From a virus: DNA of 64,000 bases. Made by a program: the position numbers and the translations under genes. The notes under the pieces were generated by a model. That model saw nothing but the letters and a program-made list of their open reading frames with translations, did no database searches and was not told the DNA's origin. Shown here piece after piece: positions 8,947 through 24,840 of this stretch. The stretch's first letter is position 1. The number at the start of each line of letters is the position of its first letter. The stretch lies in IMG/VR virus record IMGVR_UViG_3300007735_000780, positions 3,511 through 67,510 of that record, one strand, 5' to 3'.

Positions 8947-10077
8947 TTATTTTTGTAATAAAGATTTATAAACATTATAATACGATTCAGCAATATTATC
9001 CCAGTCATATTTAACACAAGTTTCTAAACCATTATTTATTAAACTTTGTTTTTGTTCTTCAGTTAAAGACAAAAAATAATTTAAAGCATTAGTAATACTA
9101 TCTACAGTATACCCACAATTTATACTATTTTGGTTAGTTAAAAAATCTCCTAAACCATCTACTCTTGAAGCTAATAAAATTGATTTAGACGCTAGTGCTT
9201 CTAAAGCTACAATTCCAAATGGTTCATGTTTACTAGGCATAATTACTGCATCTGCAGAAAACAGTAAATTTATCTTTTCTTGATTATATGCAGGTCCGTA
9301 ATAATAAAGACCAGACTTTTGGTTATTTATTTGTTCTTCTAGTTTTTTAATACATTCATAGTCTCCTCCATTTTGTGCACCTACAAATATTAAATCAATG
9401 TTATCTGGGATGTCAATGTTTAATAATGCATCTACAGATTTCATAAAAGAAAATCTTCCAATATATATTATTTTATATCTTCTATCTCCAGGTAACTTTA
9501 TTTTTTCTGTTGGTGTCCATTCTTTAAGAGATATACCATTAGGTATAACTATAGTTTTATCATTAAATTGAGGAAAATACCTTGTATATCCATTTGATAC
9601 ATTTATAATTTTATCAGCTTTGTTTAGACCATAATATTCAGATTCAACATGTGTTTTATGTAACCAATACCCATCATGAGTATTAATATTAGTACAATTA
9701 TATATTCCTGAATTTGCTAAGGCATTAGATGACAATTGCATAGAAAGTAATAGAGGAACATTATATATTTCTGCTAAATATGTTCCTGCAAAGTATGTAG
9801 ACCAATCATAAGCATGAATTATATCTGGTTTTGGTAGTTGAAGAGCTTTAGCTAAATAAACAGTATGGCTTAACAATGTATTAATAGTACCATGTGTTAT
9901 ATTTGGTATAGGATGAGAAACACTTATGTATTCTTTTATACCGTTGTCTTCATCTGGGTGGTCTACAATGTTGTAGTTTATTTTATCTTTAAGACGATAA
10001 TATAAATTTTTAAATTGAACTCCTAATCCTCCTACTGGTTTAGAAATACTGTCAGGAAATATAACTGTAACTTTCAT
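8947..10077 (-). CDS. Glycosyltransferase family 4 (GT-B)
   Basis: PVGGLG, DIIHAYDW, VIPNGI, YIGR...KS, PSKHEPFGIVALEALA (EX7E), YDWDNIA. Confidence 0.9.
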   Translation of the reverse strand: MKVTVIFPDSISKPVGGLGVQFKNLYYRLKDKINYNIVDHPDEDNGIKEYISVSHPIPNITHGTINTLLSHTVYLAKALQLPKPDIIHAYDWSTYFAGTYLAEIYNVPLLLSMQLSSNALANSGIYNCTNINTHDGYWLHKTHVESEYYGLNKADKIINVSNGYTRYFPQFNDKTIVIPNGISLKEWTPTEKIKLPGDRRYKIIYIGRFSFMKSVDALLNIDIPDNIDLIFVGAQNGGDYECIKKLEEQINNQKSGLYYYGPAYNQEKINLLFSADAVIMPSKHEPFGIVALEALASKSILLASRVDGLGDFLTNQNSINCGYTVDSITNALNYFLSLTEEQKQSLINNGLETCVKYDWDNIAESYYNVYKSLLQK

Positions 10078-10113: not shown

Positions 10114-11190
10114 TTAATAATAGGCTATTAAAAGAACATATCCATCACCTCCTCTTCCACCATTTCCAGCACGTGCTACTCCTCCAGATGTTACTGCACC
10201 ACCACCTCCTCCTCCACATCCTATACTTCCTGATCCTCCGTTTCCTCCATTAGTACTAATACTATCACTTGCTGCTCCTCCGTGTCCTGGTGTTCCTACA
10301 CCAAATGAAGAAGAGTATAAACTACTAGAAAAACCAGCTAAAATTAGTCCATTTATAAAATTATTAACACCATTTTGCCCATTACCACCATTTGCTGTTC
10401 CTGCTGAACCTGTAAAGACTAATTGTCCGTTTTTAAAAACAGCAGAACCTGTTGCTCCGTTTTGAGCAGCATTAATAGAAGTTATATTTCCACCACCACC
10501 TCCTCCTCCAGTTCCTATACTACCATTAAATGAATATAAAGGAGTAGCATTATTAAAAATAGGAGAAGTATTTCCATTTCCTCCTCTTGATCCTACTAAT
10601 TGATAGAATAAATTAGGAATAAATGATGATTGAAACTCACCACCAATATTATAAGGAGCACCAGCTAATCCTCCACTTCCTTGAACTAGAATTGTAGAAG
10701 AACCAGATCTAAAAAAACTATTATCACCTGCAGTTCCTTCACTTCCGATACTACTATTACCTCCTGCTCCTCCAGCTCCTCCACCACCAACTTGAATAGT
10801 ATAAGAACTAGTAGTTAAAGAAGAAGATTCAAACCAAGCAATAGCAATGGATCCTCCACCACCACCTCCACCTCCATTTCTAAGAGTATTAATAGCACTT
10901 GATTGTCCTCCTCCACCACCTGCTCCTGCTCCTACACAAACTACTTGTAAATATTTAATGTTATAATTAATACTAGGGTTTTTAGTCCATGTATAAGTTG
11001 TAGTTACTCCTCCTGAAGCTGTGTATTCATATACTAATGTAGAGCCTCTATTAGCTGTTAAATCAAATACTGCTCCACTTTTATCTGTTAAAAACACAGA
11101 ACTTCCACTAGAGTAAATTACTCCAGATTTTGGTGCTAAAGGTTCTGTTGATGAAGTTTTTATTAATGATATGTTATGTAAAATTTTCAT
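10114..11190 (-). CDS. Glycine-rich-domain adhesin-like protein (cassette A, member 2)
   Basis: TYTWTK...VVCVGAGAGGGGG...GGDGYVLLIAYY glycine-rich architecture. Confidence 0.7.
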   Translation of the reverse strand: MKILHNISLIKTSSTEPLAPKSGVIYSSGSSVFLTDKSGAVFDLTANRGSTLVYEYTASGGVTTTYTWTKNPSINYNIKYLQVVCVGAGAGGGGGQSSAINTLRNGGGGGGGGSIAIAWFESSSLTTSSYTIQVGGGGAGGAGGNSSIGSEGTAGDNSFFRSGSSTILVQGSGGLAGAPYNIGGEFQSSFIPNLFYQLVGSRGGNGNTSPIFNNATPLYSFNGSIGTGGGGGGGNITSINAAQNGATGSAVFKNGQLVFTGSAGTANGGNGQNGVNNFINGLILAGFSSSLYSSSFGVGTPGHGGAASDSISTNGGNGGSGSIGCGGGGGGAVTSGGVARAGNGGRGGDGYVLLIAYY

Positions 11191-11196
11191 TTTTTA

Positions 11197-12615
11197 TTAA
11201 TAGTATTCTACTAGTATACATAAACCTGAAGAACCACTTCCTCCTACACCACTCCAAGGATAACCTTCTCCTGTTCCTTGAGATGGGATTGATGAACCAA
11301 CAAATGCACTACATCCTCCACCACCACCACCTCCAGCTCCGTATAATCCTCCATGTCCTCCATTTCCTGCTACTTTACCTGTTCTATTATTAGAACCGGA
11401 AAAATAAGTACATCCTCCACCTCCACCCCCTGTTCCTAAACCATAAGAAGCAGTGAATCCTTTTAAAGGGAAACTTTGTATAAGTTGAGTAATAATATCT
11501 TTACCAACATTATCATTACCATTAGAACCATTACTGGCTGTAAATGTATTAAAAATAGCAGGATCTGTACTTGCTGATGCTCTTCTTCCTCCAGCACTTC
11601 CACTTGTTAAAGTACCATTAAAAGTAAACACTCCTGATCCTGATCCTCCATTACCAACTCCAAACTCTCCACCAAAATTAGTAAAAGTATCACTTCTTCC
11701 TCCTCCAGCACCTCCTCCTGCTCCTGCTATAGGTATAGCTCCAGTGTATTGTAAATTTGTTTCATTAAGTACTTGTCCGCTATTAAAATATATTTGAGAT
11801 GTTTGAGGTGGTGATAAAGAACTATAAGGTGAAGATGCAAAAGGATTACCAGCTAATCCAGCATGTGCTCCAGATCCTGTTGTCGAGGTGAATCCACTAG
11901 CATATCCTCCACCTGGAATCCCAAAGAAAGAGTATGGTCCTCTACTTGGTATACTATTTCTTCCTCCTCCTGGAACAGCTACTTCTGCTGAAAATTCACT
12001 TCCTGAAAAGATACTAAGTAGTGAACCTCCATATCCTCCATAACCTCCTTCTGCTATAACATATGAACCAAAAGAAGTATCATCTCCTTTAGAACCAGAT
12101 TGAGCCCAGGTTGCGTTTACTATTTGAGCAGAACTATCAAGTGATGAAGTTACACGACGTAAAGATCCTGCTCCTCCTGCTCCTACAGTTATAGAAACTG
12201 AGTTAGGAAGTTCTTCTGCAAAAAATTGAGCATATGTGATTCCTCCTCCTCCTCCTCCCATTCCTCCTGTAGCAACATGACTACTATTATACAAAGCAAA
12301 ACCACTTCCTCCTCCTCCTCCAGCACCTAAACATATTACTTTTAATAGTCTTAGATTAGTAGGTTTAGTCCAAGTGTATGTTTTAGGTGTTCCATCTCCT
12401 ATATTTGAACCAGTATAATAAAGAATATTTATACTACCTGTAAATAAATTAGTTAAATCAAACGTATCACCATCTGAATTAGTAAAATATAATGTATTAT
12501 ATGCTCCTAAAGAACTTGCACTTGAAAATAAAAGACCAAAATTGCTAGGTTGAGCGCCTGGTAGAGGTGAAGATTCTGTTATTCTAAATTTTATAGTGTC
12601 TAAAACTTTTATCAT
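11197..12615 (-). CDS. Glycine-rich-domain adhesin-like protein (cassette A, member 1)
   Basis: TYTWTKP...VICLGAGGGGGSG...GSSGLCILVEYY. Confidence 0.7.
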   Translation of the reverse strand: MIKVLDTIKFRITESSPLPGAQPSNFGLLFSSASSLGAYNTLYFTNSDGDTFDLTNLFTGSINILYYTGSNIGDGTPKTYTWTKPTNLRLLKVICLGAGGGGGSGFALYNSSHVATGGMGGGGGGITYAQFFAEELPNSVSITVGAGGAGSLRRVTSSLDSSAQIVNATWAQSGSKGDDTSFGSYVIAEGGYGGYGGSLLSIFSGSEFSAEVAVPGGGRNSIPSRGPYSFFGIPGGGYASGFTSTTGSGAHAGLAGNPFASSPYSSLSPPQTSQIYFNSGQVLNETNLQYTGAIPIAGAGGGAGGGRSDTFTNFGGEFGVGNGGSGSGVFTFNGTLTSGSAGGRRASASTDPAIFNTFTASNGSNGNDNVGKDIITQLIQSFPLKGFTASYGLGTGGGGGGCTYFSGSNNRTGKVAGNGGHGGLYGAGGGGGGGCSAFVGSSIPSQGTGEGYPWSGVGGSGSSGLCILVEYY

Positions 12616-12627
12616 AAAATTAACTTT

Positions 12628-12792
12628 TTATTGGAACGTAAAATTAGGCCCATTTAATTGTTTTCTAGTACCATTAGAGTCTATAATGTATAAAATTTTA
12701 TCTGTACCCATATAAAGAGTTAAATAACCTGTTGAAGCCGCAGGAGGAATTGATCCTGTTTCTACTAATTGTATTGAGGTTACTATATTCAT
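12628..12792 (-). CDS. Unannotated 54-aa adaptor-like protein (cassette A)
   Basis: Hand-translated MNIVTSIQLVETGSIPPAASTGYLTLYMGTDKILYIIDSNGTRKQLNGPNFTFQ; TAATG coupling to the upstream fibre gene; paralog at 21035-21181. Confidence 0.8.
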   Translation of the reverse strand: MNIVTSIQLVETGSIPPAASTGYLTLYMGTDKILYIIDSNGTRKQLNGPNFTFQ

Positions 12793-15700
12793 TATCTTGA
12801 AATATATACTATGTATTCATTAGTTGCTGGAGGTAAAGAAAATATTACTGTTACTTGATTGTCAGATGTTCTTTGAACTGTAGGATAAACTGTATCATAT
12901 GGAGCACTTCCTGACATAACTGTAACGTGTACTAAACGTGTTCCTAAATTATGATTTACAGGAATACTAGTAGCACTATCATTACCAATTGATTGAGAAT
13001 ACCAGAAATTAATATATGAAAGTTTACCTGTACTTTCATCAATCATTACAGAACTTGTAGGTATAAGGTTTTCTTGTAAATTTGCAAATCTTACTTCAGT
13101 AGTATTTGAACCAGAAACAACTAAACTACCTGTTAAAGTAACAATATTTGTACTTTTTACAAATGTAAAGTTTCCACTGCCACTAAAAGTATTACTATCA
13201 TTAAACTGAATAGTAGTATTTGCACCACCAGGTGTTCCACTTCCTCCTCCAATTGCACTTGAGGCAGTAGTAAATAACTGTCCATTATTGTCTAATAATA
13301 CTACCTTAGTAGCAGTGTTTGAATCTGTTAGATTTGGAAATCCAACTGAACCTGATACTTGAAAATTATAAGTTGGATTTATAACATTAATACCAACTTT
13401 ACCACCAGATGAACCTGTAAATGCTGAGGTGAGATTTGGATTATTAGGATCATACAATCCTGAACCGAATATAAGGCCACCAATATTTAAACGATTATTA
13501 CTACCTGAAGGGGTTGAAACAGTATTGCCTATAACAATGCTACCTGAGCCTAATGTGCCTCCATCAGCTGTTGTAAAACCGGCTTTATATCCTATAGCTG
13601 TAGAATAACTAGCATTTGAAGAATCTTTCGCTGTATTGAATCCTATAGCTATAGTGTTTAAAGATTGAGTTATATTCAATCCAGCTTGATTACCTAAAAA
13701 TATATTATAACTCCCAGAAGTATTTTTACCAGAGGCTTTACCTATATTAATTGAGAAATCATTATTATATCCTCCAAATCCAGCTTCACTTCCTAAAAAT
13801 ATTGCTTCTTTAGTATTAGTGTTATTTTGTCCTGAACCTGTACCAAACCAAATATCAAATGTATTTTCTCCTTGAGAATCAGGTGTTCCAGCTAATGGTT
13901 GAACAGAAATTAAATCTTGCTGAGATGTTACTCTTATTGGATATGAAGAAGTTACTGATGTAGTAGCAAAAGAAGCACTTGTAGAACCAGATGCATAAGA
14001 TGCACTTAACACTGGGTTAGTGTTTGTAAATATTGAACCAGTAACATATGAAGCTGTTAATGCTAAAGATGATGTTAGTGAGTTTGAACTTGATAAAGCA
14101 TATGATGCACTAGTAGAGCCTGAAGCATATGATGCACTTAATATACTATTAGAACCAAATGGTCCCCACACATTAGAAGCTGTTACAAAAGATGATGTTA
14201 ATGCTAGTGATGATGTTGTTGCTCTAGAAGAACTTAAAGCAAAAGATGCACTTAAAGCAAGATTTGTACCTGTAAATATAGAACCAGTTACATACGATGC
14301 CGTTCCTGCAAATTGGGATGCAGATGAACCTGTCCAAGCACTTGGAACAAAATCACCTCCACCACCTCCTCCAATTGCACTTGAAGCAGTGTAATATACT
14401 TGTCCTGTTGATGTGTTATATGTTAAAACATTTGATTGGGCAGTATCACTTAAACCTTGTAAAAATGTGTTTGAAGCACTTACTTCAAAATGTGATCTTG
14501 ATACAAATAAAACATTTCGTCTATTAGAATTATCAGTTCCATCTCCAATTATAAAGGCGCTTTGAGAAGTAGAAGATACATTAAACTGACCAACTACAGT
14601 TTGATATGAACCTGAGGCGATACTATTCCATCCTTCTGCATGTGATGCAACTCCTACAGCTTGTGAAGCTGAACCTTCAGCATGAGAATAGTTACCTGAA
14701 GCTGTTGTGTTTCGTCCTTCAACATGTGAAGCAAAACCGAATGCTATAGATCCACTTCCTTCAGCATGAGAATAAGAACCGGAAGCTATAGAACCTAAAC
14801 CTTCAGCATGTGAATAGTCACCTATAGATGTGGTATTTTGTCCTTCAGCATGTGAGTATAAACCTATAGCTATTGTATCTCTTCCTTCAACGTGTGAGTA
14901 AGAACCTGCAGCTAATGTTGATCTGCCTTCAGCGTGTGATGCTCCACCTATTGCTACTGTATTAAGTCCTTCAGCATGTGCTCCATTAACTAATACAGTT
15001 TGATCACCAGCCCAAGTTGTAGGAGAAGTATTTAAAATATAAGCAGAAGTAATAGTACTTGTTGGAGTAAAAAACAATTGAGTTGTAGTTGTAGCAACAT
15101 TATACGACCTACTTGTGATTAAAGGTAAGGTATAAGCAATACTTGATGTATTATATATAATAGCATAATTTCCTACAGTAAATAAACTTGTTATGTTTCC
15201 ATAAGAAGGCATAAATGAAGCAGTACCGTTAGAAATAGAAGCAGAATATGCTCTATTTGTTCCTGCTTGAGTTGTAAGACCTTCAACGTGAGAATATAAT
15301 GTTAAATTAAAAGTTCTAGTTCCATTTCCTTCAGCATGAGAACCAGTACCTGAAGCTGTTGTATTAAAACCTTCAGCATGGGAAGCAAAACCTGATGCTA
15401 ATGAACTTGTTCCTTCAGCATGTGAATAAAGACCTGAAGCAGTAACACTGATTCCTTGTTCTAAACTTTGGGACAAATAATTATATACAAAATTAGAACT
15501 TCCACTAAAAGAACTTCCACTATTAAATTGAATAGATTTGTCAGAAGGAGCTGGTAAAGAATTTAAAGCATAAGAAGCTGTTAAGGCATATGATGCACTA
15601 GTAGAGCCTGAGGCATATGATGCACTTAATATACTATTAGAACCAAATGGTCCCCACACATTAGAAGCTGTTACAAATGAAGCAGTTGAAGCAAAACTTG

Positions 15701-16565
15701 ATGTTAAGTTTTGAATAGTAGCTATATCAATACGAGCATATCTAGCATCACCAGCTGCTGTGTCAAAACCATAAATCTGCTGCCATTGGCCTGTTTGTGT
15801 ACTGCTTGTTATAAAAATAAAAGCATCACCGTTTTTATCAGCATTTCCTCCTGTTTCACCTGAAATTACAAACAGTGTTCCTGAAACTGGAGGATTAGGA
15901 TAAGAAGGATCTATGTATGGGGAACTAGATGATAATGAAGATGATAATCCTGTAAATACACCTCCTAAATTTACTGTTACATTACCGTTTATAGGAGTAA
16001 TCCCGTTTACAGTGCGTAAACTGGCTGTTAAAAGTATTCCATTGTTGACTGTAATTCCTAAACCTTGAGGTATGTTTACAAAAGATGCTGTTAATGCTTG
16101 AGAAGCACTGTGAGCCCAACTTGCTGTTCCAAATAAACTACCAGTTAATGAACCTGTAAACGAACCTGTAATACCACTAAATCCACCACTGCTTCCTGAC
16201 ACTAATAAAGAACCAGTTATAACAGCATTACCATTAAATGGAAAAGCAGTTCCACCTCCGCTTCCAGTATCAACTGTTATCGGAAATGCAGAACCATCAC
16301 CTTTTGTAAATGTTATAGTGTTTGAAGAGACAGATGCTGTTTTTAATAAAGAACCAGTATTTACACTTCCACCTCCACCTCCTCCTCCAATTGCACTTGA
16401 AGCTGTATAGTATAGTTGACCAGATTCTGAGTTGTAGGTTAAAACATTTGCTTGAGAAGCAGTAGTTAAATTATTAAAATAAATTGAACTTGATATTACA
16501 GTTAAGTTACTACCTGTAACTTGTAATGATTTAAAACTACCAGATGAAGCGCGAAATGTAGGCAT
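12792..16565 (-). CDS. Long mosaic fibre protein with SHAEG (YadA-head-like) beta-roll repeats
   Basis: 1257 aa; 14-aa xxASGxYSHAEG repeats, N-I-F-L-G repeats, TASYA linkers, C-terminal NHNLGTR...YIVYISR domain. Confidence 0.75.
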   Translation of the reverse strand: MPTFRASSGSFKSLQVTGSNLTVISSSIYFNNLTTASQANVLTYNSESGQLYYTASSAIGGGGGGGSVNTGSLLKTASVSSNTITFTKGDGSAFPITVDTGSGGGTAFPFNGNAVITGSLLVSGSSGGFSGITGSFTGSLTGSLFGTASWAHSASQALTASFVNIPQGLGITVNNGILLTASLRTVNGITPINGNVTVNLGGVFTGLSSSLSSSSPYIDPSYPNPPVSGTLFVISGETGGNADKNGDAFIFITSSTQTGQWQQIYGFDTAAGDARYARIDIATIQNLTSSFASTASFVTASNVWGPFGSNSILSASYASGSTSASYALTASYALNSLPAPSDKSIQFNSGSSFSGSSNFVYNYLSQSLEQGISVTASGLYSHAEGTSSLASGFASHAEGFNTTASGTGSHAEGNGTRTFNLTLYSHVEGLTTQAGTNRAYSASISNGTASFMPSYGNITSLFTVGNYAIIYNTSSIAYTLPLITSRSYNVATTTTQLFFTPTSTITSAYILNTSPTTWAGDQTVLVNGAHAEGLNTVAIGGASHAEGRSTLAAGSYSHVEGRDTIAIGLYSHAEGQNTTSIGDYSHAEGLGSIASGSYSHAEGSGSIAFGFASHVEGRNTTASGNYSHAEGSASQAVGVASHAEGWNSIASGSYQTVVGQFNVSSTSQSAFIIGDGTDNSNRRNVLFVSRSHFEVSASNTFLQGLSDTAQSNVLTYNTSTGQVYYTASSAIGGGGGGDFVPSAWTGSSASQFAGTASYVTGSIFTGTNLALSASFALSSSRATTSSLALTSSFVTASNVWGPFGSNSILSASYASGSTSASYALSSSNSLTSSLALTASYVTGSIFTNTNPVLSASYASGSTSASFATTSVTSSYPIRVTSQQDLISVQPLAGTPDSQGENTFDIWFGTGSGQNNTNTKEAIFLGSEAGFGGYNNDFSINIGKASGKNTSGSYNIFLGNQAGLNITQSLNTIAIGFNTAKDSSNASYSTAIGYKAGFTTADGGTLGSGSIVIGNTVSTPSGSNNRLNIGGLIFGSGLYDPNNPNLTSAFTGSSGGKVGINVINPTYNFQVSGSVGFPNLTDSNTATKVVLLDNNGQLFTTASSAIGGGSGTPGGANTTIQFNDSNTFSGSGNFTFVKSTNIVTLTGSLVVSGSNTTEVRFANLQENLIPTSSVMIDESTGKLSYINFWYSQSIGNDSATSIPVNHNLGTRLVHVTVMSGSAPYDTVYPTVQRTSDNQVTVIFSLPPATNEYIVYISR
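14926..15480. repeat. Dispersed ~555-bp near-identical repeat, copy 1 (copy 2 at 26898-27452)
   Basis: Direct comparison: long identical runs flanking a central diverged patch. Confidence 0.9.
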
Positions 16566-16570
16566 GTATT

Positions 16571-18484
16571 TTAACTATTAAATTGCATTGCTATCCAATA
16601 AACAGGGCCTGATAATGCTACAGAACTATTTGTATTAATTACAAAAGAAGCACTTTCTTTACTTTGAATAGTCCAACTTCTAGCATCTTCTCCTGTTACT
16701 GTTATAGCATAATTGTTATTAGGAAATTGAGGTGAAAAAAATATTTGATTAGATATATAATCTCCTCCTCCAGCAGGAACAAAGTTAGCTACTGAAGCTG
16801 AACTTGCTCTCATATTTGTAGTAAATGAAGCTGTAGCAGCATATGAAGCTGAAGTTACAGTACCAACTACATTAGATGCTGTTACATATGATGCTGTTAA
16901 TGCATTTGTAACTATTAAAGAACTTGATACTGCATAAGATAATTTTCCTGTTGAAGAATTATATGCTAAAATATTAGGTTGATTATCGTTGCTTAAACTT
17001 TTAAAGTAAGTATTTGGAGCATCTGCTTCAAAATGTGATTGAGAAACAAATAAGACGTTGTGACGAGCATTATTATTAGTACCATCTCCAATTATAAAGG
17101 CGCTTTGAGAAGTAGAAGATACATTAAACTGACCAACTACTGATTGGAATGAACCTGAAGCAATAGTGTATCCTCCTAAAGCTATAGAATAATCACCTGA
17201 AGCAGTTGTTTTAATACCTTTAGCATGTGAAGCATAACCTGAAGCAACTGTTTCTCTTCCTTCAGCATGTGAATAATCACCTGAAGCTGTAGTTCTATAA
17301 CCTTCAGCATGAGAAGCAGTACCTGATGCTAATGATGATGAACCTTCAGCATGAGAATAAAATCCAAAAGCAGTTACACCATTTCCTTGTTGTAAACTTT
17401 GAGAAGTGTATATGAATTTAAATGAAGAATCTGCTCCAAAACTACTTCCAGAATTGTATTGAATGTATGTGTCTGAAGGAGCTGGAGGAGTTGCTCCACC
17501 AACATTGTCTGAAGCAGTGTAATATACTTGTCCTGTTGTAGGATTATAAGTTAAAACATTTGATTGGGCAGTATCACTTAAACCCTGTAAAAATGTGTTT
17601 GAAGCACTTACTTCAAAATGGGATTTTGATACGAATAAGACATTATGACGATTACTACTGTTAGTACCATCACCAATTATAAAAGCACTTTGAGACGTGT
17701 TAGCAACATTCCATTGACCAATTACTGATTGGAATGAACCTGAAGCAATAGTGTATCCTCCTAAAGCTATAGAATAATCACCTGAAGCAGTTGTTTTAAT
17801 ACCTTTAGCATGAGAATATTCACCTGAAGCAAGAGTTTGTCGTCCTTCAGCATGTGAATAATCACCTGAAGCAACTGTTTCTCTTCCTTCAGCATGAGAA
17901 GCAGTACCGGATGCTAATGTTTGGTATCCTTCAGCATGTGAATAATCACCTGAAGCTGTTGTTAAGTATCCTTCTGCATGAGAAAAAGAACCTGATGCTA
18001 ATGAACTTGTTCCTTCAGCATGTGAATAATCACCTAAAGCGGTTGTTAATCTTCCTTCAGCGTGTGAATAACCACCTAAAGCAATTACACCAAATCCTTG
18101 TTGTAAACTTTGAGAAGTGTATATGAATCTAAATGAAGAATCTGCTCCAAAATCACTTCCAGAATTGTATTGAATAAATGTATTTGAAGGGGCAGGTAAT
18201 CTTCCTATTGAACCCGTATTAACATAATAAACTTGTCCTGTTGTAGAATTATATGATAAAACATTGGTTTGAGCAACATTTGTTATAGTAAGTAATGATA
18301 ATCCTGAACCTGTAAGATTTGTATTACTAGCATCAAATGATGATCCTGTAACTTGTATTACTCCTGTACCGTCTGAACTTGATAATGTTTGGGCTAAGTA
18401 TAAAAGGTCACCATCCATTTCTGCAATGGTAAGCTTAGATCCTTTAACTTCTCTTAGTATTAATGAAGAATTAGGTGAGGGCAT
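16571..18484 (-). CDS. Fibre protein with two SHAEG repeat blocks
   Basis: N-terminal LREVKGSKLTIAEMDGDL fibre-attachment-like motif; internally duplicated PAPS..IQYNSGS + SHAEG + AFIIGDG modules. Confidence 0.75.
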   Translation of the reverse strand: MPSPNSSLILREVKGSKLTIAEMDGDLLYLAQTLSSSDGTGVIQVTGSSFDASNTNLTGSGLSLLTITNVAQTNVLSYNSTTGQVYYVNTGSIGRLPAPSNTFIQYNSGSDFGADSSFRFIYTSQSLQQGFGVIALGGYSHAEGRLTTALGDYSHAEGTSSLASGSFSHAEGYLTTASGDYSHAEGYQTLASGTASHAEGRETVASGDYSHAEGRQTLASGEYSHAKGIKTTASGDYSIALGGYTIASGSFQSVIGQWNVANTSQSAFIIGDGTNSSNRHNVLFVSKSHFEVSASNTFLQGLSDTAQSNVLTYNPTTGQVYYTASDNVGGATPPAPSDTYIQYNSGSSFGADSSFKFIYTSQSLQQGNGVTAFGFYSHAEGSSSLASGTASHAEGYRTTASGDYSHAEGRETVASGYASHAKGIKTTASGDYSIALGGYTIASGSFQSVVGQFNVSSTSQSAFIIGDGTNNNARHNVLFVSQSHFEADAPNTYFKSLSNDNQPNILAYNSSTGKLSYAVSSSLIVTNALTASYVTASNVVGTVTSASYAATASFTTNMRASSASVANFVPAGGGDYISNQIFFSPQFPNNNYAITVTGEDARSWTIQSKESASFVINTNSSVALSGPVYWIAMQFNS

Positions 18485-18543
18485 GTGTTGATTTTTATTA
18501 TAAATATGTTATAGAATCAGAGTGATCCTATTAATGTTTATAA

Positions 18544-18747
18544 CTATACAGAAGGAAAGTCTGGTGGGATTTTTCCTAAAGGACGATAAAAAATATCTTC
18601 AGTAGACTCATACCAATCACCAATTCCTGCTACAAATTCAGTGTCTTGTTTTAAGTAGTCGTGTGGGAAAGGATATGTGTATGGAGTTGTTCCATCCCAT
18701 TCTATGTTATCAATTACATAATTATCTTTTATTACAAACCATTTCAT
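18544..18747 (-). CDS. Small fibre-assembly/adhesin accessory protein
   Basis: WFVIKDNYVIDNIEWDG...AGIGDWY pattern; follows glycine-rich genes. Confidence 0.55.
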   Translation of the reverse strand: MKWFVIKDNYVIDNIEWDGTTPYTYPFPHDYLKQDTEFVAGIGDWYESTEDIFYRPLGKIPPDFPSV

Positions 18748-18758
18748 ATATTTTTATT

Positions 18759-19868
18759 TTAATAGTATTCTAATATTGCTAAATAACCTGCTCCTCCGTT
18801 TCCTCCATTGCCTCCATTTGAACCTGATCTGGCACCTCCTCCACCACCTCCACCTGCTCCAAAAAATCCTCCATCACCTCCTCTTCCTCCTCCTACTGTT
18901 CCAGCAGCATTGCCTCCTCCAGCTCCATGTCCTCCCATTCCAAAACCATAACTAGAAGTAATTGTAGCACTTCCTGAAAATGAAAGTAATGATACTGCAG
19001 TAACAATATTACTACCACCATTACTGCCTGAATTAGCAGGGGCACTACCTCCTGTACCTGGAGAGCCTGAAGTGAATAAAGTTCCATCAATTAAGTATAT
19101 TCCTGATCCTGATGCTCCGTTAATTAATCCTCCAGCAGCAGTTATTCCACCACCAGCACCTCCTCCTCCAGTTCCTCTAAATCCTGTTCTAGCATGGTAT
19201 ATGGTATAAGTAGTACCAGGATTGGGAGTTGCAACTTGAGGACTATTAGTAGCATATCTTCCTCCTCCATTTCCTATTAAACGAAATGGTAAAGTATTTA
19301 AAAGAGTAGCAGAAACAGAATTACTTCCTCCAGCAGCAGTTCCTCCACCTAATGCTCCACCACCTCCACCGCCTCCTCCTCCAGCAGTAATCAATGTTAC
19401 TGAAGCACTAACAAGAGAAGTTGCACCACCATTAGAACCACCTGTTCCTGAATTAATAGTTGTGGTTCTACCTGCTCCTCCGTTAGTAGAAGTTGCTACA
19501 GTAACAGTATATGTACCTGCCGAAATAGAAGTTGCATCATAAAACACAACAGAAATTTGCCCACCAGCACCACCTGCTCCTCCTCCTACAGCATTAGTTA
19601 CAGCATCTCTTGCACCACCACCACCTCCTCCTCCTGCACCTACAGCTGCTATTTTAACATATTTAACATTTGCAGGTTTAGTCCAAGTACCACTACTAGT
19701 GTATTCTTGTAGTATAAAATATCCTTTTGATTCAGTTAAATTATATTCAGTACCGGTAGTGTTTTTAAAAAAAATACTGCTTCCACTAGCATATAATAAT
19801 CCTCCTGTACTAGGAGTAGCAGGAGCAGATTGTGTAACTTGATAAATTGTATTTAAAAACTTAGGCAT
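18759..19868 (-). CDS. Glycine-rich-domain adhesin-like protein (cassette B, member 2)
   Basis: EYTSSGTWTKPANVKYVKIAAVGAGGGGGGG...GGAGYLAILEYY. Confidence 0.7.
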   Translation of the reverse strand: MPKFLNTIYQVTQSAPATPSTGGLLYASGSSIFFKNTTGTEYNLTESKGYFILQEYTSSGTWTKPANVKYVKIAAVGAGGGGGGGARDAVTNAVGGGAGGAGGQISVVFYDATSISAGTYTVTVATSTNGGAGRTTTINSGTGGSNGGATSLVSASVTLITAGGGGGGGGGALGGGTAAGGSNSVSATLLNTLPFRLIGNGGGRYATNSPQVATPNPGTTYTIYHARTGFRGTGGGGAGGGITAAGGLINGASGSGIYLIDGTLFTSGSPGTGGSAPANSGSNGGSNIVTAVSLLSFSGSATITSSYGFGMGGHGAGGGNAAGTVGGGRGGDGGFFGAGGGGGGGARSGSNGGNGGNGGAGYLAILEYY

Positions 19869-19873
19869 ATTGT

Positions 19874-21025
19874 TTAATAAAATTCAGTAATAATACATAA
19901 ACCTGAAGAACCAGATCCTCCGTTTCCTCCTCGATGGGCAGCATTTCCTGAAAGCATTTGACCACCTCCACCACCACCCGCTCCATAAAGTCCACCATTA
20001 CTGCCACTTCCTGCATTAGTATTAAGACTACCAGTAGTAAAACCACCACCGTGTCCCCCTCCTCCTAATCCATAAGTTGTTGTACTTCCAGAAAATTGTA
20101 GAAGAGTGGTTATCATGTTATTTGTTGGTGTTGTTGCATTTTGACCACTAGAACCACTACCTGGGAATCCTCCATTTGTTATTAATGTAGTAAATTGATA
20201 CCCATTTGATCCACGAGACCCAGAATGGATACCACCTGTATTTCCTCCTCCGTACCCTCCGCCTCCTCCTCCTCTTCCTTTTGGAATATTAGTTAAAACA
20301 CCTCCAGCTGCTCTACCTTCATCTATAGTAAGAGCAGCATTATCAAAAATAACAAAAGCAGGAGATGAATAAGCTGGGCCTATAGCAGTAGCATCTAATG
20401 TTCCTGCATTACATCCGTTTATAGAATATGGATACCCTGCAGGAGTACACAACAGTGCTTGTCCTCCAGAAGTTTGACTACTTATTGAAAATCCTCCAGC
20501 AACTCCTCCCGCTCCTCCTCTTGCTATTACTAAAGTATCAAAAGAAGAAGTCCCTCCAGTTATTCCAACGTTTCCAGTACTAGTTGTACTACCTGCTCCT
20601 CCTGCACCTCCAGCTCCTACTACAATTGTGTAACTGCTGCTTACTAATGTACCAGCATCAAATGTTACCCAAACTATTGCTCCTCCTCCACCTCCAGCTC
20701 CCCCAGTAGATACAGCACCACCAGATCTCATTCCTCCTCCTCCACCTCCACCTGCACCAACACAACACACTTCAATAAATTTTAAACCAACTGGTTTATT
20801 CCAAGTATATGTTTGTGTTGTTCCATCTCCTATAGCTGAGCCAGTGTAATAAAGAATGTTTATACGACCACGACCTGGGGTTGAAATATCAACTTCTGTA
20901 CCTGATGAATTCTTAAAAAAGAATTTATTACTTCCACTAGCATATACAACTCCAAAACCTGAATTGGGGGTTCCTGGAGCAGATCCTGTAGTTGATAACT
21001 GTAAACTTTTTAATATTTGACTCAT
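19874..21025 (-). CDS. Glycine-rich-domain adhesin-like protein (cassette B, member 1)
   Basis: INILYYTGSAIGDGTTQTYTWNKP matches INILYYTGSNIGDGTPKTYTWTKP of 11197-12615; ends GSSGLCIITEFY. Confidence 0.7.
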   Translation of the reverse strand: MSQILKSLQLSTTGSAPGTPNSGFGVVYASGSNKFFFKNSSGTEVDISTPGRGRINILYYTGSAIGDGTTQTYTWNKPVGLKFIEVCCVGAGGGGGGGMRSGGAVSTGGAGGGGGAIVWVTFDAGTLVSSSYTIVVGAGGAGGAGSTTSTGNVGITGGTSSFDTLVIARGGAGGVAGGFSISSQTSGGQALLCTPAGYPYSINGCNAGTLDATAIGPAYSSPAFVIFDNAALTIDEGRAAGGVLTNIPKGRGGGGGGYGGGNTGGIHSGSRGSNGYQFTTLITNGGFPGSGSSGQNATTPTNNMITTLLQFSGSTTTYGLGGGGHGGGFTTGSLNTNAGSGSNGGLYGAGGGGGGQMLSGNAAHRGGNGGSGSSGLCIITEFY

Positions 21026-21034
21026 AACAGTTTT

Positions 21035-21181
21035 TTATGGTGTTAGTTTTGCTTGTGTTCCATCAGAAAATTTTACATATATAAATCCATCTGTATTCAT
21101 ATATAAAGTAACAAATCCACTGTCAGGTGTTTCTATTGACCCAGTAGCAACAAATTGTATTTCTGTTAAAAACTGTGACAT
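21035..21181 (-). CDS. Unannotated 48-aa adaptor-like protein (cassette B)
   Basis: Hand-translated MSQFLTEIQFVATGSIETPDSGFVTLYMNTDGFIYVKFSDGTQAKLTP; TAATG coupling; paralog of 12628-12792. Confidence 0.8.
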   Translation of the reverse strand: MSQFLTEIQFVATGSIETPDSGFVTLYMNTDGFIYVKFSDGTQAKLTP

Positions 21182-22332
21182 TATTGTGAAATGTAAACTA
21201 TATATTGATTTGAAGTGGGTGGATTAGCAAATATAATACTTGCTGTATTAGCATTTATTCTTCTAATATCTGGGTAAACTGTTTCACCATTTGAACTACT
21301 TTCATAAACTGTAATATGAAGATTTCTTGTATTAAAACCATGATTGATGTTAAATGATGATGATACACCGTTTCCTATAATAGAGGAAGTTGAAGTATAA
21401 GGATATGTTGAAGCAAATGATGCTGTTGTTGCAAATGATGCTGTAGGAACAGTAGAACCTGAAGGAACAGTTAAATTAGCATTATTAAAAGTTATATTAC
21501 CATTATCAAAACTGATACTAGCAGATACTGAACCACTTACAATATGAATTGAGTTGTTTCCTACATATAATTTACTCCATGCTTTAGTTGGTGATCCTAA
21601 ATTATAAGAAGAAGTATTACTGGTGTATGGTCCTCCAGGAGTAACATCTCCCATAATTTCTGTAGAACCCGTTACAACTAAAGAACCAGTAATTACAGCA
21701 CTTCCTGTATATGGGAAAGTTAGTTTAGCAATTTCGTTTGAAGCAGTAGTATATAAAAACCCGTTTCCATCTATACCAAGAACACTTACTATTGGGTTTT
21801 CACCTATACTAGGAAGAGACATATATGAAGGATTACTCCAGTCTAGGTGAGCTGTTGTTCCATCATTAGCATAAAGTATTCTATTTTCCCAATCAATAGA
21901 AAATTCATCTGCATTTGAAGACTGTAGTAATCTATTACCCCAGTCTAATGGAGTTTGACTTCCATTTTTTAAAAAAAAACTACCCCATTCTACAGTAGAA
22001 TTACCTGCACTTTTTAATTGTTCAGCATTCCAATCAACAGTTATATCACCATTAGTATTATACAAAGCACGATTAGTATCATCAACTATGATAGCAGGAG
22101 TAGAAATTATACTAGGACCTTGTCCATGTATAGAAAAAACACCAGAAACAATTAATGATCCTGATATTTCTGCACTTCCGGTGTATGGAAAAGGAAATGT
22201 TTTTACAGCATTTCCTGATCCGCTACCATAAAACATTTTACCTGTTACGGTGTTAATAGCCAATTCTCCTTGTAATAAGGAGGCAGGGGTTGAATTTGAA
22301 CCTGTACTATTTTTTATTATTATTGTAGCCAT
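21181..22332 (-). CDS. Fibre protein with N-terminal GELAIN (Mtd-N-like) domain
   Basis: TPASLLQGELAINTVTGKMFYG; DW-repeat region; C-terminal NHGFNTR...YIVYISQ domain shared with 12792-16565. Confidence 0.7.
   Translation of the reverse strand: MATIIIKNSTGSNSTPASLLQGELAINTVTGKMFYGSGSGNAVKTFPFPYTGSAEISGSLIVSGVFSIHGQGPSIISTPAIIVDDTNRALYNTNGDITVDWNAEQLKSAGNSTVEWGSFFLKNGSQTPLDWGNRLLQSSNADEFSIDWENRILYANDGTTAHLDWSNPSYMSLPSIGENPIVSVLGIDGNGFLYTTASNEIAKLTFPYTGSAVITGSLVVTGSTEIMGDVTPGGPYTSNTSSYNLGSPTKAWSKLYVGNNSIHIVSGSVSASISFDNGNITFNNANLTVPSGSTVPTASFATTASFASTYPYTSTSSIIGNGVSSSFNINHGFNTRNLHITVYESSSNGETVYPDIRRINANTASIIFANPPTSNQYIVYISQ
21661..21929. repeat. Dispersed repeat, copy 1 (copy 2 at ~32249-32523)
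   Basis: 21767-21929 matches 32361-32523 with only about 2 mismatches; second shared block FPYTGSAVITGSLVVTGST. Confidence 0.9.
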
Positions 22333-22347
22333 TATCTTTTATAAATA

Positions 22348-24840
22348 TTAAAAAGTACCTCCATTTATTACACCGTCAAAGTATGAAGCTGTAGATGCTG
22401 TTCCTAATAAAGAACCTGTAAATTCACCATGAAATGATCCACTAAATGATCCTGTGTTACTTAAAAATTGATCTACTCTATTTACTGTAACTATTACTGA
22501 GGGGATTGCAGGTGAAGCATCAATAGCACCTGAGCCTGTAGCGTATAATCTTATATTATTGTTATCAGCAGCCCATACTATTTGGAAGTAGTCGTTTGCA
22601 GAAGCATTTACAAACCAATTCCAAGCAGCTATTGCTTTATCATTCGCACCACCAGCTAAAGTAACAGCTGTATTTGTTTCAGCTAAATCAACTCCATTTT
22701 TTCTTAACCAAATATAAGCAATACCTGTTTGACCACTAGTTTTATCTAATTGGGCTGAGAATTGGATATCATATACTCCAGCATTAGCTGTTTTAATATA
22801 TGTGTTATATGGGCTAACTGATCCAGATATTGATACTCCATTTGAAATGTCTGTTGTATTAAGAGACATTGAGTATACAGCACCTACAGTACCTATAGAT
22901 TGAATGGTTGTATCATAAAAACTACCATATGAGCCTGTAGCTGTATTACCATATACTCCTCCACCTCCTGTTGAGGTAATAGTGACTTGACCTAACCCAT
23001 TTGTAGGGGATAAGGAAATATTTTGACCAGCTAATATTTGAGTTACTCCACCATTTAAAGCGTAAGTAGCATATGATGCTGTACCTAATAAAGAACTAGT
23101 TATACTACCAGAAACATTTAGACTACCTGTTAATCCATAACTACCTGTTAGTTGTTTTGTATTATTCCAAACTGTAGTATCATACATTAATAAATCACCA
23201 TATGTAGGTGATGTTAAAGATACATCAGTTAATCCGGCTAAAGTGGTTGATCCTCCACCTCCACCTCCACCTCCACCACCACCAACACCTCTAAACAATC
23301 CTCCTGCTCTAAATTCATAAGAAGCAGCTGTTGTAAAATCAGCATTATTTCTTAAGATTAAGTGTCCTACAAAAATAGCATTAGCAAATGTGTTAGGTGC
23401 TTCATTAAAAGGTTCAGTTAGTAAACCAGCAATAGCATTATCTTTACTTGAATAAGCAGCATTTCCATAATAAACATAAAACGCTTTAGTAGCACTATTA
23501 GGAAAATAAAATACTCTTTGAATTGACCAATGATTTGAAGGTACAGGAGTTAGTGATCCTGTGTTTGAATATTGAGTTGGGTCTATTGTTGTGTATCCAA
23601 CACCTGCGTTTGTATCGTAAACCCATCCTGATCCTGATTGGCGATATCTAAAAATTTTAGAGGTTGTTATGCCTGTTGCTTCAACAATATAGCTTGGATT
23701 ATTAGGATCTACTGTATAATTTCTTCCATCTACCCAAGCTGTTCCTCCACCTAATAATAAACCTCTTGAGCTACTGGGTGTTAGGTTATAATTTGCTATT
23801 TTTAAAGGTCCAAATGCTTTGATAAAATCGTATGATCTTTGTTTCCATCCATATCCTACACTAGGGAAAGTTTGAAATGCATTTATTGTAGATCTATTTT
23901 GATGAATAATAATACCAATAGGAATTAAAGTATTATAATCTCCATCATTATATGGAATCCCAGAAGCAGTTATTTGTGTATTAGAATTTATAGCTACAAA
24001 TGATTGATCAAAAGAAGCACTTAAAGGTGCTATACTAGCAGATAAATTAGACCAATTTAAAAATTTTATTGTTGGATATGGATCATCATTATATGAAGCA
24101 TTTAGATTCACAATAACACCACTACCACTTGATATTTGATATGTAGTACTATTAATTTGAGAAATTATTCCTCCATGTAATAATCCAGTATATAAATTAC
24201 CTTCTAACCATCTTAAACGAGTTGTATTAGCGTATCCATTACCATTTTGAGTAAAGTATAAGTCATTTGTAGAACCAGAAACATAAATGTAAGAAGCAGA
24301 TAATGCTTGGTTTATATTAGAAGTAACAGGATCAAATCTTAAATACCCATTTAAATCTACATTTCCAACAATAGAAACTGATTCTGATCCTGCTGATGGA
24401 GGATATTCTCCTTGGATTTGAAGAGTTCCGGATAATATAGTGTTTCCTACAAGTGTATTAGAACCGGTTGTAAATAAACTACCTGTTACAGTTTGATTAC
24501 CAATAAAAATATTTGAACCAGTAGTAGCTAAACTCGCAGATTTTGCTACAAAAACAGGATCTGTTTCTTGATAATAAGAAGCAGTAGCCGCAGTACCATT
24601 AAGACTACCGGTAAAACTTCCACTAAACGATCCTGTATTATAGGATGCTGTAAAGTTGTTTATACTTGAAGTAAACGCGTTAAAACTTGAAGTAGTTACT
24701 AGACTACCAGTATCTATTACAGCTGTAAAGGTAAATGCAGAACCAGTACCATCATAGACATTTACACCATCTGGTGTTTGTAAAACTCGTTGATATGTAT
24801 TTTCTATGTTTTGACCGGTTAAGTCAAATGGTCCTGCCAT
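22348..24840 (-). CDS. Virion fibre/structural protein
   Basis: 830 aa, TGS-rich, C-terminal C1q/TNF-like beta-sandwich pattern (GVYDIQFSAQL...IWLRKNG), ends NGGTF. Confidence 0.6.
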   Translation of the reverse strand: MAGPFDLTGQNIENTYQRVLQTPDGVNVYDGTGSAFTFTAVIDTGSLVTTSSFNAFTSSINNFTASYNTGSFSGSFTGSLNGTAATASYYQETDPVFVAKSASLATTGSNIFIGNQTVTGSLFTTGSNTLVGNTILSGTLQIQGEYPPSAGSESVSIVGNVDLNGYLRFDPVTSNINQALSASYIYVSGSTNDLYFTQNGNGYANTTRLRWLEGNLYTGLLHGGIISQINSTTYQISSGSGVIVNLNASYNDDPYPTIKFLNWSNLSASIAPLSASFDQSFVAINSNTQITASGIPYNDGDYNTLIPIGIIIHQNRSTINAFQTFPSVGYGWKQRSYDFIKAFGPLKIANYNLTPSSSRGLLLGGGTAWVDGRNYTVDPNNPSYIVEATGITTSKIFRYRQSGSGWVYDTNAGVGYTTIDPTQYSNTGSLTPVPSNHWSIQRVFYFPNSATKAFYVYYGNAAYSSKDNAIAGLLTEPFNEAPNTFANAIFVGHLILRNNADFTTAASYEFRAGGLFRGVGGGGGGGGGGGSTTLAGLTDVSLTSPTYGDLLMYDTTVWNNTKQLTGSYGLTGSLNVSGSITSSLLGTASYATYALNGGVTQILAGQNISLSPTNGLGQVTITSTGGGGVYGNTATGSYGSFYDTTIQSIGTVGAVYSMSLNTTDISNGVSISGSVSPYNTYIKTANAGVYDIQFSAQLDKTSGQTGIAYIWLRKNGVDLAETNTAVTLAGGANDKAIAAWNWFVNASANDYFQIVWAADNNNIRLYATGSGAIDASPAIPSVIVTVNRVDQFLSNTGSFSGSFHGEFTGSLLGTASTASYFDGVINGGTF

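What the first reader, a model, noticed from the sequence alone, without database searches (positions are those of the whole stretch)
10114..22332. Duplicated four-gene fibre-tip cassette with hidden ~50-aa genes sharing a docking domain with Gly-rich adhesins
Seen: the same order occurs twice. A fibre ending in an NH(N/G)(L/F).TR...TVYP...IF..PP..N.YIVYIS domain (12792-16565; 21181-22332) is TAATG-coupled to a mini-gene (12628-12792; 21035-21181), followed by Gly-rich member 1 (11197-12615; 19874-21025) and Gly-rich member 2 (10114-11190; 18759-19868). The mini-proteins (IQLVETGSIPP..TGYLTLYM.TD..LY) resemble the ~45-aa N-termini of all four Gly-rich proteins (e.g. LQLSTTGSAPGTPNSGFGVVYASGSNKFFFKNSSG). 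The two carrier fibres are otherwise largely different. Established: T-even gp38 adhesins use polyglycine-II sandwiches. Inference: three chains with a common docking domain form a heterotrimer (one stub plus two different adhesins) that plugs onto the conserved fibre C-terminus, giving a swappable dual-receptor tip.
Basis: partly seen in the sequence, partly recalled or inferred. Interest (0 to 1): 0.72.

Follow-up and report, generated by a model that had tools for sequence, protein, structure and literature searches.

The report
Conserved phage fibre-tip adhesin cassette
An uncultured freshwater phage carries two copies of a conserved gene set in which a tail fibre, a tiny 50-residue protein and two glycine-rich receptor-binding proteins appear built to snap together at the fibre tip, a modular way of choosing hosts that has not been described.

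Summary
Both cassettes sit at the stated coordinates with TAATG coupling. The mini-ORFs are real genes. The same order (fibre C-terminal domain, mini, two Gly-rich proteins) recurs in 23 of 24 related viral contigs. Mini dN/dS is about 0.24.

The shared N-terminal domain falls into three position-specific classes. It is a free-standing copy of a widespread fibre module of about 40 residues that has no Pfam family.

Three results support docking on the fibre C-terminus:
- Linkage holds in both search directions.
- In the window's second cassette only the four putative interface parts have co-diverged.
- A controlled co-fold of the C-terminal domain trimer with the mini scored 0.81 against a best control of 0.38.

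The 1:1:1 heterotrimer itself was not tested and stays an inference. I rate this a new variant of a known kind.

The parts
21181..22332 (-). Carrier fibre B (383 aa). Its last ~72 residues (about 21184-21399) are the conserved C-terminal beta-sandwich (CT) domain, the proposed acceptor.
   Evidence: ORF. CT shared with fibre A. CT conserved in 20 aligned fibres while the upstream sequence is unrelated. AF2 pLDDT ~90 for residues 49-120 of the 120-aa piece. Co-fold interface at CT residues 87-93 and 104-107 of that piece.
21035..21181 (-). Mini-protein B (48 aa), a free-standing single copy of the N-terminal module. Its start overlaps the fibre stop (TAATG).
   Evidence: Orthologues in 23 of 24 CT-seeded loci. 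dN/dS about 0.24. Co-fold with the CT trimer 0.81 versus best control 0.38.
19874..21025 (-). Gly-rich protein, position 1, cassette B (383 aa). N-terminal module (1-~50) plus TNF-like and polyglycine head (53-383).
18759..19868 (-). Gly-rich protein, position 2, cassette B (369 aa).
   Evidence: PF21722 at 27.7 bits. Paralogue alignment. Position-2 clade.
18544..18747 (-). Fifth conserved gene (67 aa), directly after position 2. Candidate assembly factor; function not shown.
   Evidence: Follows position 2 in 15 of 17 cassettes, and also in L011, L091, L092, L098 and L099. 22 invariant columns in 16 sequences. No Pfam family. Unknown-function PHROGs 14370 and 18617.
12792..16565 (-). Carrier fibre A (1257 aa, with YadA-head-like repeats). 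Its last ~72 residues (about 12795-13010) are a divergent A-type CT domain.
   Evidence: A-type CT is 42% identical to the others, against 77% among the others. The same A-type CT sits on a 333-aa carrier in L099.
12628..12792 (-). Mini-protein A (54 aa), TAATG-coupled, divergent A type.
   Evidence: An A-type relative (84% identical) lies in L099. Cluster P0265.
11197..12615 (-). Gly-rich protein, position 1, cassette A (472 aa).
   Evidence: PF21722 at 40.9 bits.. N-domain 37% identical to the others, against 60% among the others, while the head is 47% against 52%.
10114..11190 (-). Gly-rich protein, position 2, cassette A (358 aa).
   Evidence: PF21722 at 40 bits.. N-domain 38% against 57%, head 44% against 46%.

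Best explanation
This is a modular tail-fibre tip system of an uncultured myovirus. Its nearest cultured relative is Flavobacterium phage immuto, which lacks the cassette.

A trimeric carrier fibre ends in a small conserved Ig-like beta-sandwich (CT). Three separately encoded proteins follow it: a stub of about 50 residues and two adhesins. All three begin with homologous four-strand modules of about 45 residues. These modules attach non-covalently to the distal face of the CT trimer, and each module's N-terminal strand lies against the invariant VYPD and F.NPP elements of CT.

The two adhesins carry TNF-like plus polyglycine heads of the Pam3 gp24 / Bxb1 gp33 kind, and these heads bind the host surface. 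The most likely stoichiometry is one stub plus one of each adhesin per fibre trimer. That pseudo-threefold heterotrimer would put two different receptor-binding heads on one tip.

CT, mini and the two adhesins move together between carrier fibres by recombination at the start of CT. A second cassette in the same genome has a co-diverged (A-type) interface, so the two sets should not cross-assemble. Tight coupling (TAATG or ATGA overlaps, gaps of 3-23 nt) suggests coordinated synthesis. The 67-aa fifth gene is probably an assembly factor.

Shown: the genes, their conservation, purifying selection, the fold of the heads, linkage, and co-divergence.
Supported by a model only: the mini-CT contact.
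Inferred: the heterotrimer, dual-receptor use, orthogonality of the two cassettes, and the role of gene 5.
For: - Conserved order: 23 of 24 CT-seeded loci have it. In 21 of those 23 the fibre stop overlaps the mini start as TAATG, and 2 have a 2-nt spacer.
- Reverse search seeded with the mini: 26 loci. That is the same 23 contigs plus 3 new ones, and every locus with upstream sequence has a CT-bearing fibre.
- The mini is protein-coding. Median dN/dS is 0.24 over 78 pairs. Variable columns fall 25/12/36 of 46 at codon positions 1/2/3.
- Three position-specific classes. All 17 minis sit on one side of a branch, and position 1 (16) and position 2 (16) form separate clades. The tree needs 3 label changes, against a shuffled mean of 24.5, and 0 of 200 shuffles were as low.
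- Pam3 gp24 domains are described as receptor-recognising (PMC9608196, abstract and passages read).
- The N-module has low confidence in the monomer model (pLDDT 41-62), while the head is confident.
- Co-fold of CT x3 plus mini: scores 0.77, 0.81, 0.81 against a best control of 0.38. Runs share at least 96% of contacts and the partner's pLDDT is at least 90. The mark was reached by 116 of 157 solved complexes and 2 of 215 mismatched pairs, and these counts hold only roughly because my own alignments were used.
- The predicted interface includes the invariant V89, Y90, P91 and F105 of CT.
- Co-divergence. Cassette A against 16 others has median identity CT 42, mini 41, p1N 37 and p2N 38. Among the 16 these are 77, 67, 60 and 57. 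Heads are 47 and 44 against 52 and 46.
- A second genome (L099) holds both types. Each is 79-98% identical to its window counterpart and 33-51% to the other type. Its A-type sits on a 333-aa carrier instead of 1257 aa.
Against: - No experiment, no virion proteomics and no cultured phage with the cassette. tblastn of the mini against 50,697 phage records gave only two E 0.1 hits, and immuto has 0 modules.
- The heterotrimer was not folded or tested.
- In the co-fold, one mini touches all three CT copies. This could mean there is room for only one module per trimer.
- Pam3 gp24, the solved relative of the heads, is a homotrimer. A two-headed assembly would therefore be unusual for a TNF-like domain.
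- CT is a generic domain. It also ends head-decoration and virion proteins of cultured phages that have no mini.
- Some CT-bearing fibres have no cassette of their own (L006 424-1752, L007 995-2209, L015).
- Head identities may be floored by glycine content, which weakens the co-divergence contrast.
- The alignments used for the co-fold are shallow (19-20 rows).
Confidence: 0.55

Rival explanations
1. Alternative caps. Each fibre trimer accepts only one N-terminal module on its axis, as one gp38 monomer caps the gp37 trimer in T-even phages. The stub, adhesin 1 and adhesin 2 then compete for the same site. A virion would carry a mixture of fibres tipped with adhesin 1, adhesin 2 or a blank.
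For: - In the co-fold a single mini contacts all three CT copies.
- Gp38 is described as monomeric on a trimeric fibre (PMC12032242, abstract seen in the search listing).
- All three proteins carry the same kind of module.
Against: - The content is strictly 1 mini plus 2 adhesins, in a fixed order, in every complete cassette seen.
- The three classes are ancient and position-specific. Interchangeable caps would not be expected to behave this way.
- A conserved, selected 'blank' has no obvious use.
Confidence: 0.2
2. Separate homotrimeric short fibres. Each Gly-rich protein trimerises through its own N-module and TNF-like domain, as Pam3 gp24 does. It attaches to CT or elsewhere as a homotrimer. 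The mini forms its own homotrimer that caps or regulates free CT ends, for example on the extra CT-bearing fibres.
For: - Pam3 gp24 is a homotrimer with a 3:3 chaperone.
- The module occurs in long, presumably homotrimeric fibres in 2-22 copies.
- Some genomes have more CT-bearing fibres than cassettes.
Against: - It does not explain why three distinct classes are kept at 1:1:1.
- It does not explain why all four interface parts co-diverge together in the A type.
- The mini is translationally coupled to the very fibre that precedes the adhesins.
Confidence: 0.15
3. The mini is a non-structural assembly factor. It transiently occupies or templates the fibre C-terminal domain during folding and is absent from the virion. 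The adhesins attach by another route.
For: - Small proteins encoded next to fibres are often chaperones, for example Pam3 gp25 after gp24.
- The N-module is poorly ordered alone.
Against: - The mini is homologous to the adhesins' own N-termini. This points to shared binding rather than chaperoning.
- A different conserved small gene (18544-18747) is a better chaperone candidate.
Confidence: 0.1

Closest known systems
Mycobacteriophage Bxb1 gp33 'tail wing brush' (PDB 9D93 chains Q)
   Different: gp33 attaches to the wing base/arm of a siphophage tail tip, not to a long fibre (passages of PMC12646305). No stub protein or paired paralogue is known to me; the primary paper is not held. Our proteins add an N-terminal module of about 50 residues that lies outside the aligned range (model 55-382).
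Cyanophage Pam3 tail fibre gp24 with chaperone gp25 (PDB 7YPX, 7YFW)
   Different: gp24 is a single homotrimeric fibre with an alpha-helical N-domain that docks to the baseplate. Here the N-domain is a beta module. There are two different heads plus a headless stub, and the acceptor is the C-terminus of another fibre. Gene 5 shows no detectable similarity to known chaperone families.
T-even gp37-gp38 tip (Salmonella phage S16 gp38, PDB 6F45)
   Same: It works alike. A separately encoded polyglycine adhesin is attached by its N-terminal domain to the C-terminal tip of a trimeric long fibre, and it is exchangeable between phages. Pam3 gp24 was reported to resemble gp38.
   Different: gp38 is one monomer per fibre, with no stub and no paralogue pair. 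No sequence match to gp38 came up in the PDB profile search, and 6F45 is not among the rows printed. I do not file this as a gp38 family member.
Heterotrimers of paralogous phage tail proteins (mycobacteriophage Mysterious gp35/36/37; baseplate wedge heterotrimers)
   Same: They are a precedent for three related chains forming one pseudo-threefold unit in a phage tail (passages of PMC13252515, and PMC13250141).
   Different: Those sit in the baseplate, not at a fibre tip. None is reported as one stub plus two adhesins.

Membership tests
Pfam PF21722 Gly_rich_2 / TNF-like + glycine-rich receptor-binding head (Pam3 gp24, Bxb1 gp33 type) | Sequence reaches the family's curated Pfam score | tested here: met
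   All four proteins score 27.7-48 bits against a cut-off of 24.3.
Pfam PF21722 Gly_rich_2 / TNF-like + glycine-rich receptor-binding head (Pam3 gp24, Bxb1 gp33 type) | Fold: beta-sandwich (TNF-like) from which glycine-rich extended segments stack into a lattice | tested here: met
Pfam PF21722 Gly_rich_2 / TNF-like + glycine-rich receptor-binding head (Pam3 gp24, Bxb1 gp33 type) | Runs of consecutive glycines (GGGGxGG-type motifs) conserved among members | tested here: met
   There are many invariant G columns in the 4-way and 34-way alignments. Glycine makes up 23-28% of residues.
Pfam PF21722 Gly_rich_2 / TNF-like + glycine-rich receptor-binding head (Pam3 gp24, Bxb1 gp33 type) | Binds a host surface receptor | not testable with these tools
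   No host and no assay. Inferred from what is written of Pam3 gp24.
T-even gp38 adhesin family | Detectable sequence or close fold relationship to gp38 (for example S16 gp38, PDB 6F45) | tested here: inconclusive
   The profile search of the PDB returned only 9d93 gp33. 6F45 is not among the rows printed. Absence from a list does not exclude a distant relationship.
T-even gp38 adhesin family | A single monomer capping the gp37 trimer | not tested
   Stoichiometry is unknown here. The gene content (stub plus two paralogues) differs from a single gp38 gene.
Widespread ~40-residue phage fibre module (no curated family) | Match to a profile of the module, including its N-terminal half and not only the central hairpin | tested here: met
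   1402 representatives at E <= 1e-3 and 118 at <= 1e-10. Of the 150 listed, 132 were re-detected locally. 125 of those have a long match starting at profile position <= 16, and 7 have only the central part. No Pfam family covers it. The central 20 positions also match PQQ-like propeller blades, so the total of 1402 is inflated.
Caudovirales tail fibre assembly proteins (PF02413 Caudo_TAP), considered for gene 5 | Match to the Pfam model | tested here: not met
   0 of 16 members match at E <= 10. The only link is an Atlas feature score of 0.80, which the tool says is often chance.

The most novel reading that the evidence does not exclude
A pseudo-threefold heterotrimer of one headless stub and two different polyglycine adhesins, each from its own ancient module class, caps a homotrimeric fibre. 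This would break the fibre's threefold symmetry and mount two receptor specificities on one tip. Two cassettes with co-diverged, mutually orthogonal docking interfaces (A and B types) would let one virion carry four distinct adhesins without cross-assembly. The whole tip (acceptor domain plus three genes) would be a recombination unit that can be grafted onto any carrier fibre.
Probability: 0.4. Interest if true: 0.8.

Novelty: new variant of a known kind. Interest (0 to 1): 0.64.

Why it matters
Host range in tailed phages is set at fibre tips. The known solutions are a homotrimeric tip, or a single monomeric adhesin (gp38) on a trimeric tip.

A tip built from three paralogous chains, one of them a deliberate blank, would be a third solution. 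It would show how a threefold fibre can display two different receptor-binding heads.

The acceptor domain is only about 72 residues and the docking module about 45. That is small enough to be attractive for engineering swappable receptor-binding tips. The A and B types would give two ready-made orthogonal pairs.

The work also assigns a role to a very common, uncurated module of about 40 residues in metagenomic phage fibres. And it shows that 50-residue ORFs between fibre genes can be functional structural genes.

Tried and rejected
- **Cultured phages.** Megablast of the whole region found no match. tblastn of a Gly-rich protein and of fibre B also found none, probably because the low-complexity filter removed the queries.
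- **Poly-G seed.** The search for related loci with the Gly-protein alignment failed, because the poly-G patterns matched 606 stretches and none was a relative.
- **A-type CT search.** The scan seeded with the last 150 residues of fibre A mostly recovered a generic fibre motif upstream of CT. The 41 new loci held no docking module, CT or gene 5.
- **Bacterial and archaeal genomes.** No mini in 185,579 species genomes.
- **Gene 5.** tblastn in cultured phages gave one E 0.04 hit. The Atlas gave only unnamed viral clusters.
- **Programmed frameshift fusing fibre and mini.** Rejected. There is no slippery site at the junction, and L017/L018 have a 2-nt spacer instead of an overlap.
- **Fused CT-module chains.** 0 of the 268 proteins held match the CT profile.
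- **Expression.** One freshwater RNA-library run holds short contigs over parts of gene 5, position 2, the start of position 1, and the CT region, but none over the mini. The tool warns that DNA can be present in such libraries and that a gap proves nothing. Transcription and translation therefore remain unshown.
- **Papers.** The primary Bxb1 structure paper is not held, so how gp33 is mounted comes second-hand.
- **Earlier findings.** The search of earlier findings returned nothing in three tries.
- **Not in print.** Searches found no description of this cassette. Subscription journals are largely outside that library.


Full report
**Setting**

The window is part of a 67.5-kb viral contig that CheckV rates 44% complete. 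All genes of the region lie on the minus strand. The tail sheath at 6912-8624 is 55.6% identical to that of Flavobacterium phage vB_FspM_immuto, the nearest cultured phage. So this is an uncultured myovirus of that general kind. Near-identical DNA occurs in lake and other freshwater metagenome runs, three of which hold half or more of the sampled words.

**Observation**

Both fibre stop codons overlap the mini start as TAATG. The two fibres share only the last ~65 residues (45% identity, E 5e-15). The minis are 47% identical (E 7e-12). The four Gly-rich proteins are 39-42% identical paralogues.

The likeness of the minis to the Gly-protein N-termini is statistically sound. A profile made from 30 N-termini of other contigs, with no minis and no window sequence, finds six and only six of the window's 735 stop-to-stop frames. 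These are the four Gly proteins and both minis (E 2.8e-8 and 6.5e-4). The next frame scores E 1.2.

**Are the minis genes?**

A scan of IMG/VR with the fibre C-terminal (CT) profile gave 24 loci. Of these, 23 show CT, then a 47-51-aa mini, then two Gly-rich proteins of 355-390 aa. L015, with a CT only 31% identical, has none. L011's second Gly gene starts with GTG. In 21 of the 23 the junction is the TAATG overlap, and L017/L018 have a 2-nt spacer. Several loci are near-duplicates, so I analysed 15 distinct loci plus the window's two cassettes.

Among 13 minis in the same register, median pN/pS is 0.35 and Jukes-Cantor dN/dS is 0.24 over 78 pairs. Variable columns number 25, 12 and 36 of 46 at codon positions 1, 2 and 3.

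A protein search found 123 clusters of 38-65 aa, all labelled hypothetical where a source names them. The minis are therefore conserved coding genes, although translation has not been observed directly.

**What the parts are**

*Heads.* All four Gly-rich proteins pass the Pfam cut-off of PF21722 Gly_rich_2. They also match PHROG 863, labelled 'tail fiber assembly'. An AF2 model of 19874-21025, built on 34 sequences, has mean pLDDT 71.7 and pTM 0.74. Its core is confident and residues 1-24 fall below 50.

[quoted passage not shown] The N-terminal helical domain docks and trimerises the fibre, and a chaperone gene follows (PMC9608196, abstract and passages). The closest relatives, however, are gp33 and gp24 rather than gp38.

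*CT.* The last ~72 residues are highly conserved (up to 94% identity) while the sequence before them is unrelated from fibre to fibre. The model is a six-to-seven-strand beta-sandwich with pLDDT about 90. It has only generic Ig-like matches. In cultured phages, similar C-terminal domains end AR9/PBS1 virion proteins, head-decoration proteins and tail fibres. CT is thus a common domain, not a dedicated platform by itself.

*N-terminal module.* A profile of 34 modules finds 1402 representatives at E <= 1e-3 in 1.84 billion proteins. Many are proteins of 500-3000 aa with 2-22 copies. Others carry one copy at the N-terminus of quite different heads.

Of the 150 listed, 132 were re-detected locally. 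125 of those have a long match that includes the N-terminal half of the profile.

One caution applies. The central 20 positions also match PQQ-like propeller blades, so part of the 1402 are propellers. No Pfam family covers the module, and no solved phage protein matches it by sequence. The mini is therefore a free-standing single copy of a widespread fibre module.

*A fifth gene.* A protein of 66-71 aa follows position 2 in 15 of 17 cassettes; the exceptions are L016 and cassette A. It also follows position 2 in L011, L091, L092, L098 and L099. In the window it is 18544-18747. It has 22 invariant columns in 16 sequences, no Pfam match, and only unknown-function PHROGs. By position it is the best candidate for an assembly factor, but nothing tested here shows that.

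**Do the parts work together?**

1. *Linkage in both directions.* CT-seeded loci have the mini (23 of 24). Mini-seeded loci number 26: the same 23 contigs plus L091, L092 and L098. Wherever upstream sequence exists they have a CT-bearing fibre (L091). In L092 the CT lies in a shifted frame after a repetitive stretch. L098 is cut off.

2. *Three classes.* In a tree of 51 modules, the 17 minis lie on one side of a branch (support 89/100). Position 1 (16 rows, 93/93) and position 2 (16 rows, 80/20) form separate groups. The two Gly modules of cassette A sit unresolved on long branches. Three label changes are needed against a shuffled mean of 24.5, and 0 of 200 shuffles were as low. Each class has its own conserved N-terminal strand. 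Every complete cassette has exactly one of each class.

3. *Co-divergence.* Median identities:

| Part | Cassette A vs the 16 others | Among the 16 others |
|---|---|---|
| CT | 42% | 77% |
| Mini | 41% | 67% |
| Position-1 N-domain | 37% | 60% |
| Position-2 N-domain | 38% | 57% |
| Position-1 head | 47% | 52% |
| Position-2 head | 44% | 46% |

Only the four putative interface parts are outliers. A caveat is that glycine content may floor head identity.

A 146-kb metagenome contig (L099) holds both types again. Each is 79-98% identical to its window counterpart and 33-51% to the other type. Its A-type CT sits on a 333-aa carrier instead of 1257 aa. The A and B types are thus stable lineages that co-reside, as expected if two sets in one virion must not cross-assemble.

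4. *A controlled co-fold.* Three copies of CT plus the mini scored 0.77, 0.81 and 0.81, against a best control of 0.38. The other controls scored 0.03 and 0.00. Runs agreed in at least 96% of contacts, and the partner's pLDDT was at least 90. The tool's mark was reached by 116 of 157 solved complexes and 2 of 215 mismatched pairs. Those counts hold only roughly here, because my own alignments and three copies were used. The tool says this supports binding and does not show it.

The interface is mini residues 1-7, 11, 13, 15-16 and 27, against CT residues 87-93 and 104-107. The CT side includes the invariant V89, Y90, P91 and F105. The mini touches all three CT copies.

**What remains inferred**

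I did not test whether mini, adhesin 1 and adhesin 2 sit together on one CT trimer. The arguments for it are the fixed 1+1+1 content, the three ancient classes with class-specific N-terminal strands, the match of three modules to a threefold acceptor, and the module's normal home in presumably trimeric fibres.

There are two arguments against it. The single mini already touches all three CT copies. And Pam3 gp24, the solved relative, is a homotrimer.

My odds are about 45% for the heterotrimer, 20% for alternative single caps, 15% for separate homotrimers with a capping mini, and 10% for the mini as a non-structural assembly factor. The broader claim is that these adhesins are mounted on the fibre C-terminus through the shared module. 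I put that at about 70%.

**Comparison with what is known**

It works like the gp37-gp38 tip of T-even phages: a separate polyglycine adhesin attached by its N-domain to a trimeric fibre end. The heads belong with Pam3 gp24 and Bxb1 gp33. It differs from all three in having a headless stub, two paralogous adhesins, a beta-type attachment module and an Ig-like acceptor.

Heterotrimers of paralogous tail proteins are known in baseplates (passages of PMC13252515; PMC13250141), but not at fibre tips in what I could search. I found no description of this cassette. That library lacks most subscription journals, and the Bxb1 structure paper could not be read.

No cultured phage holds the mini. Immuto has no module. 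No bacterial or archaeal species genome has it.

**Verdict**

I rate it a new variant of a known kind, with interest 0.64.

Noticed in passing
window 8947-10077 (-): A GT4-family glycosyltransferase (PF00534, E 1.5e-17) sits directly after cassette A, between it and the conserved 82-aa gene and the sheath. The related contig L099 and all other loci go straight from the fibre module to the 82-aa gene. It therefore looks like an inserted accessory gene in the tail module.
   Followed up: partly
window 16571-18484 (-) and inside 12792-16565 (-): These fibres carry many YadA-head-like repeats (PF05658, E 2.9e-17 and 2.1e-5). The N-terminus of the 637-aa fibre resembles the N-terminus of L099's 333-aa A-type carrier, which points to domain shuffling among carriers.
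   Followed up: partly
L006 424-1752; L007 995-2209; L015 2558-3877: These fibres end in the CT domain but have no mini or adhesin genes after them. In L006 and L007 a full cassette lies further downstream, so one adhesin set might serve two fibres.
   Followed up: no
proteins P0001, P0008, P0011, P0115, P0143 and others: The module of about 40 residues occurs up to 22 times in very long metagenomic proteins, and singly at the N-terminus of non-glycine heads. It has no Pfam family. Its central hairpin resembles PQQ-type propeller blades.
   Followed up: partly
L092 3600-4500: The carrier fibre's reading frame breaks inside a long serine/tyrosine-rich repeat, and the CT domain continues in another frame. 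This could be an assembly error or a real frameshift.
   Followed up: no
window 8676-8924 (-): An 82-aa, apparently coiled-coil protein directly upstream of the sheath is conserved in nearly all related loci. It has no family match.
   Followed up: no
window 21181-22332 (-), N-terminus: The 383-aa carrier begins with a hairpin-like motif similar in style to the docking module. The gene before it (22348-24840, 830 aa) has the N-terminus that in L006 belongs to a CT-ending fibre. The fibres may therefore be chained end to end.
   Followed up: no
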